Of a stretch of DNA of 30,224 nt, positions 18,656 through 24,077 are shown one piece after another. Every line of letters begins with the position of its first letter. The first letter of the stretch is position 1. The notes beneath the pieces are model-generated. The model was not told where the DNA came from, ran no database searches, and saw only the letters and a program-made list of their open reading frames with translations. The translations under genes and the position numbers were made by a program. Source of the stretch: a virus (taxonomy: Duplodnaviria > Caudoviricetes). The stretch spans positions 1-30,224 of IMG/VR virus record IMGVR_UViG_3300023105_000124; one strand, given 5' to 3'.

Positions 18656-19501
18656 ATGAGAAAACACAATTATTTAAACAACAAGGATATTTTATCCGAA
18701 ATACACAAATCAAAAAGTAGTTTTTGCAGTTACACTGAAGATGATTTTCATCAATATGATTTGATCATCCCTTTACAAGGTCCGCACGGTACCCTAGACG
18801 AAGGACTGCAAAAAATAAACATTAGAACTATAGCCGAAGCAAAAAGAAATAAAGCAAAAAGAATTCAAAATCAAAACTTTGACGCTGCTAAGGCCCAAGG
18901 ACAAAAAGTTAAGTTAGCTGATTTCGAAGTCAACTGGAAAAAAATAGATAAAAAAGACTTAGTTTTTAGAATAATGACTTATAATCATATACCTGACGAA
19001 CCAGGTCGTAAAAAAACGCCAAAAACAGTTGCTGACACAAAAACAAAATTAAATTTTCCGCCATATCAACATTACAAGTTTAACGAAAACGATGATTTAG
19101 TGTGTGTAGGCAAAAGTCATTGGGAAGGCGGTATGGAAAACGGGTATTTTAACAAACAAAGCGGAAAAGTTACCAATAAGCTTGCTCACATGTGGATGAA
19201 ACTATGTGAAAGATATGCAACTAGAGGAAATGTAAGAGGCTATACATATAATGACGAAATGCGTGGACAAGCGATCTTACAATTAACTCAAATAGGGTTA
19301 CAATTTGACGAATCAAAAAGTCAAAATCCTTTTGCTTACTATACTGCTGCTGTAACAAACTCTTTTGTTCGTGTCATAAACTTAGAAAAACGTAATCAAA
19401 ATATAAGAGATGATATTTTAGAAATGAACGACATGACTCCGAGCTATACTAGGCAAAGCCAACGTGAATGGGATGCAAATAATTCATCACAAAAAAGTTG
19501 A
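18656..19501 (+). CDS. gp55: Late-transcription sigma factor, T4 gp55-like, with large insertion
   Basis: N-terminal HNYLNNKDIL and C-terminal NVRGYTYNDEM...QFDESKSQNPFAYYT...NSFVRVINLEK match gp55 motifs. gp55-47-46 order as in T4-like phages. Confidence 0.88.
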   Translation: MRKHNYLNNKDILSEIHKSKSSFCSYTEDDFHQYDLIIPLQGPHGTLDEGLQKINIRTIAEAKRNKAKRIQNQNFDAAKAQGQKVKLADFEVNWKKIDKKDLVFRIMTYNHIPDEPGRKKTPKTVADTKTKLNFPPYQHYKFNENDDLVCVGKSHWEGGMENGYFNKQSGKVTNKLAHMWMKLCERYATRGNVRGYTYNDEMRGQAILQLTQIGLQFDESKSQNPFAYYTAAVTNSFVRVINLEKRNQNIRDDILEMNDMTPSYTRQSQREWDANNSSQKS

Positions 19502-19551: not shown

Positions 19552-20562
19552 TTGTTTAAAAAAGCAGCTATCTTTACTGATATACATCTCGGTTTAAAAA
19601 GCAATAGTAAAATACATAATCAAGATTGTGAAGAATTTGTTGATTGGTTTATTGATACAGCAAAAGATAACAATTGCGAAACTGCTATCTTTTGTGGCGA
19701 CTGGCATCATAATCGAAGTAGTGTAAACTTGTCTACACTAGACACAACGGTAAGATGTTTAGAAAAATTAGGCAATTCGTTTGACAATGTAATAATGTTT
19801 GTAGGTAATCACGACTTATATTATAAAGATCGTAGAGATGTTACTTCTACAACCTTTGCAAAACACATTCCAGGCATTACAGTAATAGATGAATTTACCG
19901 AAATAGAAGATGTAGCATTTGTTCCGTGGTTAGTTGGACCTGAATGGAAGAAAATTGAAAAGTCAAAATCAAAATATATGTTTGGTCATTTTGAACTGCC
20001 TACATTTTTAATGAATGCTCATGTTCAAATGCCAGAACACGGTGATTTACGAGCTTCTCATTTTATAAATCAAAAATATGTTTTCAGTGGACACTTTCAT
20101 AAAAGACAAGTTAAAGGTAATATACATTATATCGGCAATGCTTTCCCTCATAATTACTCAGATGCTTGGGACGATGAACGAGGAATGGTTGTTTTAGATA
20201 GAGAAAACAACGGCGAACCGATTTATATTGATTGGCCGAACTGTCCGAAATACAGAACTGTTACTCTTTCTCAGTTACTTGATCCCGAAAACAACATAAT
20301 TCAAGACAAAATGTATCTTAGAGTATCTATTGATATTCCAATTTCTTACGAAGAAGCAAGTTTTATTAAGGACACTTATATAAAACAGCACAATTGTAGA
20401 GAAATTACTCTCATACCACAAAAACAATTAGACGAAATATCTACCGAACTTGATATTAGTAAGTTTGAAAGTGTTGATGAAATTGTTACTAAAGAAATTA
20501 CTGCAATCGATTCTGAAGCATTTAATCAAAAAATGCTTTTAGACATTTACAAGGATTTATAA
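19552..20562 (+). CDS. gp47: Recombination endonuclease subunit (Mre11/SbcD-like)
   Basis: Metallophosphoesterase motifs TDIHLG, GDWHH, GNHD, GHFE and SGHFH. Confidence 0.95.
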   Translation: MFKKAAIFTDIHLGLKSNSKIHNQDCEEFVDWFIDTAKDNNCETAIFCGDWHHNRSSVNLSTLDTTVRCLEKLGNSFDNVIMFVGNHDLYYKDRRDVTSTTFAKHIPGITVIDEFTEIEDVAFVPWLVGPEWKKIEKSKSKYMFGHFELPTFLMNAHVQMPEHGDLRASHFINQKYVFSGHFHKRQVKGNIHYIGNAFPHNYSDAWDDERGMVVLDRENNGEPIYIDWPNCPKYRTVTLSQLLDPENNIIQDKMYLRVSIDIPISYEEASFIKDTYIKQHNCREITLIPQKQLDEISTELDISKFESVDEIVTKEITAIDSEAFNQKMLLDIYKDL

Positions 20563-21101
20563 TGTTAATATCAGGAAATAAAGAGTTTGGCGTAGCTAAA
20601 TCTCTGCACACATTGTACCCCGATGCTGTTTTTTGTAGCAGAACTACCGGTTACGACTTGTGCTCGTATGACGGACAATATAGATTTGCCATAGAATCCC
20701 TCAATCATAGCGTGATAATTATATGTTCAGCTTTGTGGAAATTTCATCAAACAAACTTATTAGACGAAGTTTATAAATCTTGCGTAAAAAATGATCATAA
20801 TCCTCATATTATTACCATAGGCAGTACTACCGATAGAACTAAAAGTGGTAAAGTTTGGAGATACAATGCAGAAAAGAAAGCATTAAGAGACTATTCTAAC
20901 TCTATTTCCCTCGGCGGAGTATGGGATAAAAAACCAAAATTAACATATATAAGCTTTGGCACGTTATCTAACAATCAAAATAAACATCCTGATCGAAAAT
21001 GTCTTGACATTGATAACGCTGTAAGCTATATTAAGTGGATAATCGATCAACCTAAAGACATTTGTATTAATGAAATTAGTATTGATCCGAAACAATTTTA
21101 G
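20562..21101 (+). CDS. Minimal short-chain dehydrogenase/reductase-like (Rossmann) protein
   Basis: LISGNKEFGVAKSL (degenerate TGxxxGxG), IITIGS (catalytic Ser region), YNAEK (YxxxK) and C-terminal INEISI. TAATG coupling to gp47. Confidence 0.75.
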   Translation: MLISGNKEFGVAKSLHTLYPDAVFCSRTTGYDLCSYDGQYRFAIESLNHSVIIICSALWKFHQTNLLDEVYKSCVKNDHNPHIITIGSTTDRTKSGKVWRYNAEKKALRDYSNSISLGGVWDKKPKLTYISFGTLSNNQNKHPDRKCLDIDNAVSYIKWIIDQPKDICINEISIDPKQF

Positions 21102-21104
21102 TAT

Positions 21105-22880
21105 ATGTCAATTATTTTAAAAGATTTAACTGTTAAAAACTTTATGAGCGTCGGAAATCAAACCCAAGCAGTGCGGTTTGATCAAGAACAGCTCACTCTA
21201 GTGCTTGGTGAAAACTTAGACCAAGGAGGTGATGATTCTGGATCACGAAACGGGACGGGCAAAACTACAATAATTAATGCATTGTCTTACGCTCTCTACG
21301 GCCAAGCACTAACTAATATCAAAAGAAACAACCTTATTAACAAAACTAACTCAAAACACATGTTAGTAACGTTGAATTTTGAAAAAAATAATGTTCAATA
21401 CCGTATCGAGCGTGGTAGATCGCCAACATTTACTAAATTTTATGTTAACAACGAAGAACAAGAGCTTACAGACGAGTCACAAGGCGACTCTCGCAAGACT
21501 CAAGAGTCGATTAATGAGCTTTTAGGTATGAGTCACGATATGTTTAAGCATATTGTGGCGCTTAATACCTATTCCGAGCCATTTTTAGCAATGCGTACTA
21601 ACGATCAGCGTGCAATTATTGAACAATTGCTCGGTATTACCATACTTTCTGAAAAAGCTGAAGTTCTAAAAGAAAAAATTAGAGAAACAAAAACTAATAT
21701 TGACTCAGAAACTAACAAAATCCATGCAATTCAGTCAGCAAATGAGAAAATTGAAGAAACAATTGCTAGTTTAGGTGGTACTCAACGTGCTTGGCAAGCA
21801 AAAAGAAAGCAAGATATTGAAAAATTACAAGCTGCTATCGATGAATTAGGCAAACTAGACATTAATACTGAAATTGAGAGTCATGAAAAGCTACAAAATT
21901 GGCAAACAACCAATACTGAACTTGAAAATTTACAAAAAGAACGTGTAGCTTTAGAGTCTGCTCACCAAAGAGCACAAAAAACCGTAGACAAAATAGAAAA
22001 AGATATTCAAGATCTCGAAGACGCAGTATGTTATGCTTGCGATCAACCACTACATGACGACAAAAAACAAGAAATTCTTGCAAAAAAGACCGAAGAGCTA
22101 AACGAATCTGCAAAATATTTGCAAGAAATTATCGAAACGCTTGATAAAACACAAAAAAATATCGCTGATATTGGTGAATTAGCAAGTAAGCCTAAAGTTT
22201 TTTATGAATCTATGAAGGAAGCATACGAACATAGACAAAACATTGATAGTCTTTTGCAAAGTCTTGAAGCAAAACAGGCCGAAACTGACCCTTATAAGGC
22301 TCAGATTGATGAATTAACTAATACGGCACTTCAAGAAATTAATTGGAATACTGTAAACGAACTTACAAACTATCAAGAACACCAAGAATTTCTATTAAAA
22401 CTACTTACAAACAAAGATAGTTTCATAAGAAAGAAGATTATTGATCAAAATTTAGCATATTTAAACAATAGACTAACATCTTATCTTAATAAACTTGGAC
22501 TTCCGCATCAAGTTGCTTTTCAAAATGATCTAAATGTAGAAATTACGCAACTAGGACAGGATTTAGACTTTGATAATTTGAGTCGAGGCGAACGTAATAG
22601 ACTTATACTTGGATTAAGTTTTGCATTTAGAGACGTATGGGAAAATCTATATCAAAATATCAACTTATTGTTTATCGATGAGCTGATAGACAGCGGTATG
22701 GACTCAGCTGGTGTTGAAAATGCACTAGGTGTAATCAAACACATGGGTAGAGAAGGAAGAAAAAATGTTTTTCTTATCTCACACAAAGATGAATTAGTGG
22801 GAAGAGTAAATCATGTTCTCAAAGTGATAAAAGAATCAGGATTTACTTCTTATTCAACAGACTTGGACGTTGTAGAATGA
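21105..22880 (+). CDS. gp46: Recombination ATPase subunit (Rad50/SbcC-like)
   Basis: Walker A GSRNGTGKTT, coiled coil with CYAC zinc hook, signature LSRGE, Walker B LLFIDE and H-loop ISHK. Confidence 0.96.
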   Translation: MSIILKDLTVKNFMSVGNQTQAVRFDQEQLTLVLGENLDQGGDDSGSRNGTGKTTIINALSYALYGQALTNIKRNNLINKTNSKHMLVTLNFEKNNVQYRIERGRSPTFTKFYVNNEEQELTDESQGDSRKTQESINELLGMSHDMFKHIVALNTYSEPFLAMRTNDQRAIIEQLLGITILSEKAEVLKEKIRETKTNIDSETNKIHAIQSANEKIEETIASLGGTQRAWQAKRKQDIEKLQAAIDELGKLDINTEIESHEKLQNWQTTNTELENLQKERVALESAHQRAQKTVDKIEKDIQDLEDAVCYACDQPLHDDKKQEILAKKTEELNESAKYLQEIIETLDKTQKNIADIGELASKPKVFYESMKEAYEHRQNIDSLLQSLEAKQAETDPYKAQIDELTNTALQEINWNTVNELTNYQEHQEFLLKLLTNKDSFIRKKIIDQNLAYLNNRLTSYLNKLGLPHQVAFQNDLNVEITQLGQDLDFDNLSRGERNRLILGLSFAFRDVWENLYQNINLLFIDELIDSGMDSAGVENALGVIKHMGREGRKNVFLISHKDELVGRVNHVLKVIKESGFTSYSTDLDVVE

Positions 22881-23107: not shown

Positions 23108-23571
23108 GGCATGAATATAAACATTATATGGAATGGACCTATAAAGGCAATGTAATCGATAGTTTACCTGATAACTGTGAAGGTTTTGTATATGTGATTA
23201 CAAATACAGTTAACGGTAAGCAATATATAGGCAAGAAATACGCAAAATCTACAAAAACTCGACCACCTCTTAAAGGAAAGAAAAACAAAAGGCGTACAAA
23301 AGTAGAAAGTGATTGGAGAGACTACTGGGGTTCTTCTGATCATTTAACAAAAGACATAGAAAATTTAGGCAAAGAAAAATTTACAAGAGAAATACTTTAC
23401 ATTTGTCCCAGTAGAGGCATTGCAAGTTATTTAGAAGCACGAGAACAATTTGAAAGGCGAGTTTTAGAATCTGACAATTACTATAACGGAATAATAAACG
23501 TTAGGATAGGCAGTTCTAAAATATTAAAGGAGTACCTAGGCAATGAAACAGGTAAAACAAAACTTTAGGCA
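22973..23571 (+). repeat. Dispersed same-strand AGGCA motif cluster (12 exact copies plus 2 AGGCG)
   Basis: AGGCA starts at 22973, 23006, 23042, 23095, 23107, 23145, 23229, 23367, 23415, 23508, 23538 and 23567. AGGCG at 23290 and 23455. Confidence 0.8.
23128..23568 (+). CDS. GIY-YIG (Seg-like) endonuclease, catalytic domain only
   Basis: GFVYVITNTVNGKQYIGKK, YWGSS, FTREIL, EAREQ and YYNG motifs. 146 aa with no C-terminal DNA-binding module. Confidence 0.9.
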   Translation: MEWTYKGNVIDSLPDNCEGFVYVITNTVNGKQYIGKKYAKSTKTRPPLKGKKNKRRTKVESDWRDYWGSSDHLTKDIENLGKEKFTREILYICPSRGIASYLEAREQFERRVLESDNYYNGIINVRIGSSKILKEYLGNETGKTKL

Positions 23572-23589
23572 AGCCATGCAGCACATAAG

Positions 23590-23940
23590 GTTAGCGGGCC
23601 GGATATAAAACCGCTGTGGAAAAGTCAGGGAGCAGACCTGAACACGTAACATGTTAAGCCAACACCCAGAGGTGGTAAGTTAACATAGGTTGATTGCTGT
23701 CAATCACAAACACACTAGTTCATAAAAACTGTGCAAGTAGGAACGAGAGCACAGGTATCGCATTCGTGCGTGATGTCGACGTAGGTTGGGAAAGGTCAGA
23801 GCCCATTGAACGTGTGTATAAAACAAATACCTACTTCCATGTCACGGGTGGTGATACTCACAGGAAAACAAAAATTTTCTTTATGACGGAGCCGTAATAG
23901 GTTCCGTCTGAGCAGCTTAATCTACAGGAATCTTTCTTCC
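23590..23940 (+). ncRNA. Putative structured noncoding RNA, family not recognised (ends approximate)
   Basis: Locally GC-richer intergenic DNA tiled by about ten stems, e.g. AGCGG/CCGCT, TCAGG/CCTGA, ATGTTAA/TTAACAT, TGATTG/CAATCA, CTGTGC/GCACAG, CGCA-TTCG-TGCG, GTAGGT/ACCTAC and GACGGAGCC/GGTTCCGTC. The UUCG loop and G-U pairs favour the + strand. Confidence 0.7.
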
Positions 23941-23948
23941 CGAGTACC

Positions 23949-24074
23949 TAAAAAAATCTAAAAAAGACTTTTTAAAACAATCAAAAAGCGTATTAGTACG
24001 AAGTAAGTTGTTGAGTTTGATTTGCGATAGCGATAGCTGAGCAAACAAACGAAGACATGGATCAACGTAGTTGA
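23949..24074. other. A-tract segment followed by a cluster of GNA/GATA-loop mini-hairpins (origin-like or other ssDNA signal)
   Basis: A-tracts at 23950, 23960, 23974 and 23983. TAC-GAA-GTA (23997-24005), AGC-GATA-GCT (24029-24038) inside GTTTG(A)TTTGC/GCAAACAAAC (24015-24050), and TCAAC-GTA-GTTGA (24062-24074). Confidence 0.45.
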
Positions 24075-24077
24075 GAC

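What the first reader, a model, noticed from the sequence alone, without database searches (positions are those of the whole stretch)
23128..23940. Minimal GIY-YIG nuclease followed directly by a large unnamed structured RNA: candidate nuclease-RNA system
Seen: a 146-aa GIY-YIG protein with no C-terminal DNA-binding module but a very basic insert (KKYAKSTKTRPPLKGKKNKRRTK). About 25 nt after its stop begin ~350 nt of noncoding, GC-richer DNA in an otherwise gene-packed genome, tiled with stems: 23593-97/23611-15, 23625-29/23637-41, 23651-57/23680-86 (inner CACC/GGTG), 23691-96/23701-06, 23729-34/23749-54, 23759-70 (UUCG loop), 23781-86/23829-34 (inner TGGG/CCCA), 23840-45/23851-56, 23862-68/23875-81 and 23885-93/23900-08. 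A possible long-range closure is CTGTGGA 23614-20 with TCTACAG 23921-27. Known: GIY-YIG homing enzymes such as I-TevI get specificity from appended DNA-binding domains, while OMEGA nucleases (IscB, TnpB) get it from an adjacent structured RNA. I could not match this RNA to tRNA, tmRNA, RNase P or group I/II introns. Inference: the RNA may be the nuclease's partner (scaffold, guide or inhibitor) or a ribozyme, with the basic insert binding it.
Basis: partly seen in the sequence, partly recalled or inferred. Interest (0 to 1): 0.85.

Follow-up and report, generated by a model that had tools for sequence, protein, structure and literature searches.

The report
Knotted jumbo-phage RNA with twin repeats
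The gap after the nuclease gene holds a conserved, predicted triple-knotted RNA of giant aquatic phages that ends in two short, always-matching repeats and a DNA-hairpin tail; it also occurs without this nuclease, and it most likely helps start phage DNA copying rather than guiding the nuclease.

Summary
The structured element is real and more elaborate than reported. It spans about 350 nt (23579-23930), has 12 helices including three pseudoknots backed by compensatory changes, and belongs to a family with about 2,300 estimated IMG/VR stretches.

It is not a dedicated partner of the GIY-YIG protein. The same genomic slot holds either this GIY-YIG or a RusA-like resolvase (both in 0 of 199 loci). 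The RNA follows either gene, has its own sigma70-like promoter in some relatives, and occurs with neither. Cultured phages carry the basic insert without the RNA.

Two features were missed. A 6-7-nt word occurs twice around the last hairpin; it varies between lineages but matches in both copies (110 of 110; chance 36 of 110). A tail of DNA-type mini-hairpins follows.

The window's subtype has no Rfam hit, but relatives' 5' module is Polynucleobacter-1 (RF01718). This scan met the family before on another genome (e1-5684341). My best, unproven reading is an RNA-primed replication-origin cassette (0.4).

The parts
18656..19501 (+). gp55-like late sigma factor, first gene of the conserved block
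   Evidence: PHROG 12791, E 2.5e-75
19552..22880 (+). gp47 (SbcD-like, 19552-20562), a 179-aa gene, and gp46 (SbcC-like, 21105-22880); they mark the conserved slot
   Evidence: PHROG 100 and 77; same order in PA5oct; Phosso has the same three genes with inserted genes
23128..23568 (+). SegE-type minimal GIY-YIG nuclease; the basic stretch is the tip of a predicted beta-hairpin; it occupies the slot that holds a RusA-like resolvase in relatives
   Evidence: PF19835; model pLDDT 80; best fold match I-TevI catalytic domain, Z 7.9, rmsd 2.7, 81 aligned; exclusion with the resolvase
23579..23930 (+). Structured RNA body, subtype A; ends inferred from conservation, not from transcript mapping
   Evidence: 65 pairs in 12 helices, 96.4% of cells paired, 34 pairs with double changes, 0 of 500 shuffles as high, slid controls 36-40%
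23579..23699 (+). Pseudoknot 1: 5' end 23579-83 pairs with loop 23695-99
   Evidence: 100% paired; GC/AU swap in 15 and CG/UA swap in 3 of 32 sequences
23718..23811 (+). Pseudoknot 2: 23718-22 with 23807-11, crossing helix 23781-86/23829-34
   Evidence: all 5 pairs show double changes, in 6-17 of 32 sequences each
23776..23800 (+). Pseudoknot 3: 23776-80 with loop 23795-800 (one bulged base); the counterpart in subtypes B and C covaries more strongly
   Evidence: 98.8% paired, 3 pairs with few double changes; B and C counterparts 95-100% paired with 5-15 double changes per variable pair
23856..23866 (+). Repeat 1: CTC followed by the word ACAGGAA (23860-66)
23885..23908 (+). Last hairpin between the repeats; varies by G-U wobble only in subtype A
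   Evidence: 98.3% paired, one-sided changes
23920..23930 (+). Repeat 2: TCT followed by the same word ACAGGAA (23924-30)
23931..24075 (.). Tail with DNA-type C(GNA)G and GC(GNNA)GC mini-hairpins at 23997, 24029 and 24064
   Evidence: across 91 tails 132 such hairpins against 9.2 in shuffles and 5 in 88 upstream coding stretches

Best explanation
The element is a conserved, predicted triple-pseudoknotted phage RNA with twin repeats and a DNA mini-hairpin tail that occurs with or without the GIY-YIG gene, and it likely acts in cis as an RNA-primed replication-origin cassette. Shown by comparison: the structure, the twin repeats that always match, the tail, independence from the nuclease, and own promoter-like sites in relatives. 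Inferred steps: (1) the RNA is transcribed by read-through or from its own promoter and folds into a scaffold; (2) its 3' part stays hybridised to the template DNA strand as an R-loop, and because one complementary strand must be able to pair with either copy of the word across the last hairpin, the two words must match while their sequence is free; (3) the RNA end primes DNA synthesis, and the mini-hairpins, once single-stranded, serve as primase or helicase loading marks. The GIY-YIG is likely a branch-cutting nuclease that replaces the RusA-like resolvase; it is a neighbour, not the RNA's effector.
For: Covariation and G-U-rich stems mark the body as a single-stranded + strand fold. G-T pairs make up 104 of 907 pairs in the last body hairpin against 12 of 685 in tail stems. 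The tail is enriched about 14-fold in GNA/GNNA mini-hairpins, a motif more stable in DNA than RNA and reported at phage G4, ssiA and N4 initiation sites (PMC13037366, passages). The tail accompanies a non-syntenic copy (G001 166 kb) and three of five copies on MAG contigs, as expected of a cis-acting cassette. The twin words match in 110 of 110, 35 of 35 and 40 of 40 distinct loci against 36 of 110 chance hits. No internal Watson-Crick partner was found and the words show no consistent genome-wide enrichment. L406, L427 and L422 have TTGACA-17-(-10) sites upstream. T4 uses several R-loop origins made of a promoter plus downstream element, three of them near strand-switch points (PMC3016281, passages); this element lies within about 10 kb of such a switch in 6 of 6 metagenomic records. 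Phosso has RNase H beside the syntenic gap.
Against: No experiment or read-level data show an R-loop, priming or even a discrete transcript; the RNA runs were contigs only. Third-position skew shows no consistent switch at the element. Tail GC of 33% is no lower than the genome, so no distinct unwinding element is shown. T4 R-loop origins need no elaborate RNA fold, so three pseudoknots are unexplained by priming alone. No convincing promoter lies just upstream in the window itself. One resolvase subclade has other, shorter structured elements or none in this slot. Homology to the PA5oct copies is not statistically significant.
Confidence: 0.4

Rival explanations
1. It is a free, trans-acting ornate RNA like GOLLD or ROOL, an RNA oligomer or scaffold for a phage or host protein; the twin words are two copies of one contact site and the tail ends transcription.
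For: Size, multiple pseudoknots and conserved A-rich loops. Own promoters in relatives. Several copies per genome. Copies on bacterial MAG contigs with phage late-promoter-like words upstream. A possible PA5oct relative is a detected transcript (PMC7318152).
Against: A protein site rarely demands exact identity of two freely varying words. The DNA-type tail travels with the RNA. PA5oct ncRNA004 is only 0.02-0.08% of phage reads.
Confidence: 0.25
2. The repeat-hairpin-repeat segment is a template: a polymerase copies from repeat 2 to repeat 1 and realigns, as in telomerase, DRT2 or DRT10, making tandem-repeat nucleic acid; the pseudoknotted part is its scaffold.
For: It explains identity with free sequence most simply. 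DRT2 binds a pseudoknotted RNA (PMC12039810, listing only). DRT10 makes tandem repeats from an RNA template (10.1101/2025.10.16.682844, passages).
Against: No PF00078 reverse transcriptase in 5 of 5 records, including complete PA5oct and the 85% complete G001, while 3 of 14 controls rang. No concatemer of the unit in viral contigs or metagenome contigs; the 2 hits were unrelated. Unit lengths of 49-66 nt are not multiples of three.
Confidence: 0.13
3. The RNA is a ribozyme with a group I-like core that cuts or splices at the two matching words.
For: Pseudoknot 2 crossing 23781-86/23829-34 has the P3-P7-P7.1 order of group IA introns (topology recalled; pairs).
Against: No RF00028 hit at E<=10. 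The bases that would form the bulged G-site are paired in pseudoknot 3. The P7-like helix differs in sequence between subtypes. No internal guide covaries with the words. No interrupted gene flanks the element.
Confidence: 0.1
4. One reading: the RNA is scaffold, guide or inhibitor of the adjacent GIY-YIG, bound through the basic hairpin.
For: Adjacent in 122 of 136 motif-found loci and in all 69 nuclease-anchored loci with enough sequence. In L088 the pair is kept in reverse order in a different gene context.
Against: It occurs with a resolvase or with neither nuclease. Subtype is incongruent with the nuclease tree. The same basic insert occurs in RNA-less Melnitz and phiN3. No segment matching elsewhere in the genome was found.
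Confidence: 0.07

Closest known systems
Polynucleobacter-1 RNA motif (Rfam RF01718; Weinberg et al. 2010, PMC2864571)
   Same: It is the 5' module of subtype C members of this family (8 of 20 and 2 of 13 loci tested, 59-115 bits), which share the 3' core, twin repeats and tail with the window's element.
   Different: The model covers 141 nt of a 300-420-nt element. The window's subtype A has a different 5' half and no hit. The paper lists it as a possible cis-regulatory RNA of Burkholderiales and fresh water; in the passages I saw it is not tied to phages.
GOLLD and ROOL large ornate phage RNAs (PMC12286853, search listing only)
   Same: Large, pseudoknot-rich, phage-borne non-coding RNAs of unknown function.
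   Different: No Rfam match. It is smaller, sits beside gp46 rather than tRNAs, and has twin repeats and a DNA-hairpin tail.
R-loop origins: T4 oriF/oriG (PMC3016281, passages) and ColE1 RNA II (recalled)
   Same: Transcript followed by a downstream DNA element, more than one copy in some genomes, near strand-switch points.
   Different: T4 origins are about 100 bp and sequence-independent, with no ornate RNA. No R-loop or priming is shown here.
OMEGA systems (IscB/TnpB with omega-RNA; recalled)
   Same: A small nuclease gene next to a large structured RNA.
   Different: The linkage is not obligate, the nuclease is exchangeable for an unrelated fold, and no guide with a target was found.
SegE-type GIY-YIG, PF19835 / PHROG 447
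   Same: Full-length family match; widespread in T4-like phages (785 records).
   Different: Here it replaces a RusA-like resolvase in a fixed slot. The family label 'NAD synthetase' is not supported by the Pfam or fold results.

Membership tests
SegE-type GIY-YIG nuclease (PF19835) | Profile match over cut-off and GIY-YIG fold | tested here: met
   123 bits against cut-off 25; top fold matches I-TevI Z 7.9, UvrC 5.3, T4 EndoII 4.9
OMEGA-like RNA-guided nuclease system | Obligate linkage of nuclease and RNA | tested here: not met
   RNA with resolvase or neither in 14 of 136 motif-found loci and 23 of 43 resolvase loci; nuclease without RNA in Melnitz and P-SSM2
OMEGA-like RNA-guided nuclease system | RNA and nuclease co-diversify | tested here: not met
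   Subtypes A, B and C all occur in both main parts of an 82-protein quick tree with many weak branches
OMEGA-like RNA-guided nuclease system | Variable guide with targets elsewhere | tested here: inconclusive
   The only freely variable word matches its twin 50-65 nt away; no consistent genome-wide enrichment; host and competitor genomes not searched
OMEGA-like RNA-guided nuclease system | Protein binds the RNA and needs it to cut | not testable with these tools
   needs biochemistry
Polynucleobacter-1 (RF01718) | Covariance-model score above gathering in the window | tested here: not met
   no hit
Polynucleobacter-1 (RF01718) | Family relatives carry the motif upstream of the same 3' core | tested here: met
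   8 of 20 and 2 of 13 loci; shared core
Group I intron | P3/P7 pseudoknot order | tested here: met
   crossing helices 23718-22/23807-11 and 23781-86/23829-34; intron topology recalled
Group I intron | Conserved P7 guanosine site and P/Q/R/S sequences | tested here: not met
   would-be bulge is paired in pseudoknot 3; helix sequence differs among subtypes; no RF00028 hit
Group I intron | Interrupts a host gene | tested here: not met
   flanking genes are complete and vary between loci
R-loop replication origin | Promoter upstream | tested here: inconclusive
   consensus-like sites in L406, L427, L422; none convincing in the window
R-loop replication origin | Downstream single-strand initiation marks | tested here: met
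   132 mini-hairpins in 91 tails against 9.2 shuffled; resemblance to known marks only, function untested
R-loop replication origin | Strand-composition switch at the site | tested here: inconclusive
   raw skew follows gene strand; third-position skew has no consistent switch in 7 records
R-loop replication origin | Persistent RNA-DNA hybrid and autonomous replication | not testable with these tools
   needs experiment
Telomerase / DRT2 / DRT10-type template RNA | Template flanked by matching short repeats | tested here: met
Telomerase / DRT2 / DRT10-type template RNA | Associated reverse transcriptase | tested here: not met
   0 of 5 records with PF00078; controls rang; four of the records are partial
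Telomerase / DRT2 / DRT10-type template RNA | Concatemeric product | tested here: inconclusive
   none in assemblies, which would rarely hold such products
Holliday-junction resolvase (for the GIY-YIG) | Complementary distribution with known resolvases | tested here: met
   0 of 199 and 0 of 43 loci with both; Melnitz and P-SSM2 lack EndoVII and PHROG 244; exception B23 has EndoVII, phiN3 a weak hit
Holliday-junction resolvase (for the GIY-YIG) | Cleavage of four-way junctions | not testable with these tools
   needs biochemistry

The most novel reading that the evidence does not exclude
A new class of phage RNA machine: a triple-pseudoknotted scaffold presents a repeat-hairpin-repeat module on which a complementary strand (template DNA in an R-loop, or a strand newly made by a non-RT polymerase) jumps from one copy of the word to the other, telomerase-style, to start jumbo-phage replication. 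Bacterial islands have captured the cassette to ride on or block these phages.
Probability: 0.15. Interest if true: 0.9.

Novelty: new variant of a known kind. Interest (0 to 1): 0.62.

Why it matters
How PA5oct-related jumbo phages start DNA replication was not stated in the papers I read. A conserved RNA-plus-hairpin cassette gives a direct handle on that question, and the twin-repeat rule yields a clean single-versus-double mutant test. The finding also places an orphan Rfam motif from 2010 inside a much larger phage RNA. It suggests a job, resolvase replacement, for a very common T4-like protein still labelled 'NAD synthetase'.

Tried and rejected
Rfam, ARAGORN and blastn against cultured phages found nothing for the window's element. 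A GGTCAGA/TCTGAC pseudoknot that I first proposed lacks compensatory change and was dropped. RNase P, tmRNA, SRP, box C/D and TIGR resemblances rested on recalled motifs and failed on conservation in the alignments. Metatranscriptome runs are stored as contigs; relatives' pieces lie on both the RNA and the genes, so expression, ends and level could not be judged. GC-skew and mini-hairpin-density scans did not single out the site in whole records. PA5oct, Phosso and Atu_ph07 were not detected by my HMMs or by two covariance models; the PA5oct copies scored 12.3 and 11.9 bits beside a 12.1-bit chance hit. There is no sequence match in the PDB and Foldseek gave no E<=0.001 hit. The concatemer search gave 0, 0 and 2 unrelated hits. 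Rows dropped before counts: L152, L204 and L255 as chance pattern hits; 76 of 225 motif loci with too little upstream sequence. One census regex mis-parsed 6 of 18 resolvase loci; the five other than L397 were read as matching, as was L397. The nuclease tree is the quick version; the careful search did not finish.

Full report
Observation. The ORF at 23128-23568 is a 146-aa SegE-type GIY-YIG (PF19835; PHROG 447). It closes the block gp55-gp47-X-gp46-76 aa of a T4-like jumbo phage whose nearest cultured relatives are PA5oct/Paride, Phosso and Atu_ph07. All ten paired stems checked are complementary. The + strand folds better than shuffles (z -2.3) and the - strand does not. Rfam and ARAGORN find nothing in the window.

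Conservation. Of the window plus 80 nuclease-anchored viral loci, 69 carry the conserved 3' end. The other 12 contigs stop within 374 nt of the gene. A DNA motif from that end matches an estimated 2,300 IMG/VR stretches. Three subtypes share the 3' core and differ in the 5' half. For 32 sequences of the window's subtype, a 65-pair structure is 96.4% paired and 34 pairs show double changes. No shuffle of 500 reaches this and slid controls give 36-40%. I derived the structure from this same alignment, which favours it.

Relation to the nuclease. Among 199 element loci with at least 1.5 kb upstream, 185 have the GIY-YIG, 11 a RusA-like resolvase (PHROG 244), 3 neither and 0 both. For the 136 loci found by the RNA motif alone the figures are 122, 11, 3 and 0. 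Of 43 loci fetched with a resolvase, none has the GIY-YIG within 3 kb and 23 carry the element. Five such records of 107-199 kb lack PF19835, though they are only 29-57% complete. G001 (302 kb, 85% complete) has two copies and no PF19835. L406, a copy of the window's own subtype (259 bits), points away from the resolvase and has a TTGACA-17-TATTAT site upstream; L427 and L422 are similar. Conversely, Melnitz has a 66% identical nuclease with the same basic stretch, nests inside the nuclease tree, and shows no element beside the gene or elsewhere. P-SSM2 and phiN3 are gene-packed after the gene. RNA subtypes are mixed across the nuclease tree, which is a quick tree with weak support. The model folds as a GIY-YIG with the basic stretch at a beta-hairpin tip. 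I infer that it replaces the resolvase as a branch-cutting nuclease. B23, which has both it and EndoVII, is an exception.

Twin repeats. The last hairpin is flanked by CTC+word and TCT+word (here ACAGGAA at 23860 and 23924). The scan pattern let the two copies differ at two positions, yet they matched in 110 of 110 distinct loci. They matched in 35 of 35 with a second pattern and in 40 of 40 nuclease-anchored loci. The seventh letter agreed in 165 of 172. In bacterial contigs, 10 of 10 true elements matched against 36 of 110 chance hits. Resolvase loci add AGATCAA, AAATGAG, AGTTGAA, GAATGAT and AACAAAA, and two 6-of-7 matches. These loci are related, so the counts are not independent events, but at least a dozen words occur and several recur in separate branches. 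No column pairs with the words in a complementary way, and they show no consistent genome-wide enrichment or depletion. A word that is free in sequence but must match its twin is most simply explained by one complementary strand pairing with either copy. This is inference.

Tail. The 200 nt after repeat 2 hold 132 C(GNA)G or C(GNNA)G mini-hairpins in 91 representatives, against 9.2 in shuffles, 26 in the RNA body and 5 in 88 coding stretches. Tail stems have 1.8% G-T pairs against 11.5% in the last body hairpin. Such hairpins are more stable as DNA and occur at G4, ssiA and N4 initiation sites (PMC13037366, passages). The tail accompanies a non-syntenic copy and three of five copies on MAG contigs of Methylococcales and other proteobacteria; one lacks it and one is cut off. 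Those contigs may be islands or mis-binned phage DNA.

Cultured phages. PA5oct has a 1.5-kb gap in the same slot, beside its resolvase, with a near-consensus sigma70 site. It holds that genome's only match to the subtype-B loop motif, and it is paralogous (82.5% over 126 nt, E 2e-31, plus an identical 32-nt tail piece) to ncRNA004. RNA-seq detected ncRNA004 at 0.02-0.08% of phage reads, highest early (PMC7318152, passages). My models do not score either copy above chance, so this homology is a lead only.

Mechanism. I favour a cis-acting, RNA-primed origin cassette (0.4), by analogy with T4's several R-loop origins (PMC3016281, passages). Against it, skew gives no signal, the tail is no more AT-rich than the genome, and no transcript-level data exist. 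Rivals are a trans-acting ornate RNA (0.25), a telomerase/DRT-type template (0.13; no RT in 5 records and no concatemers), a ribozyme (0.1) and a nuclease partner (0.07).

Known and new. The 5' module of subtype C is Rfam Polynucleobacter-1. In my library search only the 2010 paper names it (I saw table rows and supplement hits). Searches combining GIY-YIG, jumbo phage, pseudoknot and structured-RNA terms returned no description of the full element, the repeats or the tail. The library omits most subscription papers. I saw only passages of PMC10690425; its 8,495 IMG/VR candidates of 29-151 nt are in supplements I did not search and may include pieces of this RNA. Group I, ColE1, OMEGA and SLX1 details are recalled unless a call is cited.

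Verdict. This is a real, widespread, ornate phage RNA with an unusual twin-repeat rule. It is partly catalogued, not a GIY-YIG-specific system, and its function is open. Interest 0.62; new variant of a known kind.

Noticed in passing
L404, L405, L412, L416: first ~130 nt after the resolvase stop: A different, shorter conserved hairpin-rich element follows the resolvase in this subclade; no Rfam hit for L404 at gathering.
   Followed up: partly
L413, L418 after the resolvase stop; L407, L415, L419 after the next gene: A second short conserved structured element (~120 nt) recurs here; no Rfam hit for L413 or L418.
   Followed up: partly
G001:275,560-275,680 and L107, upstream of the element: Tandem expansions of an AGGCA-containing word lie just 5' of the element; the word peaks within 40 nt of the 5' end (54 of 78 loci, control 37).
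   Followed up: partly
L452, L464, L467, L469, L480: Element copies on MAG contigs (mostly Methylococcales and other Gammaproteobacteria) without either nuclease, next to recombinase-like or toxin-antitoxin-like genes and a divergent phage-like small gene; possible satellites or defence islands. Gene labels are by eye.
   Followed up: partly
window 23112-23127: A TAA(G/A)(T/C)A-type word sits 4-8 nt before the GIY-YIG start in many relatives, possibly a late promoter giving a leaderless mRNA.
   Followed up: no
L553:401-481 and L554:401-465: Unrelated GC-rich loci from one metagenome with two or three tandem GGGTTCCGTCTGACCC repeats inside a conserved non-coding frame.
   Followed up: no
L088:2500-3100: Element followed, not preceded, by the GIY-YIG in a small-gene phage context unlike the jumbo block.
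   Followed up: no
L311:7750-9180 and L329:6116-6734 (PA5oct): The syntenic gap and ncRNA004 are paralogous; four tiny ORFs annotated in the gap may be misannotations of an RNA gene.
   Followed up: partly
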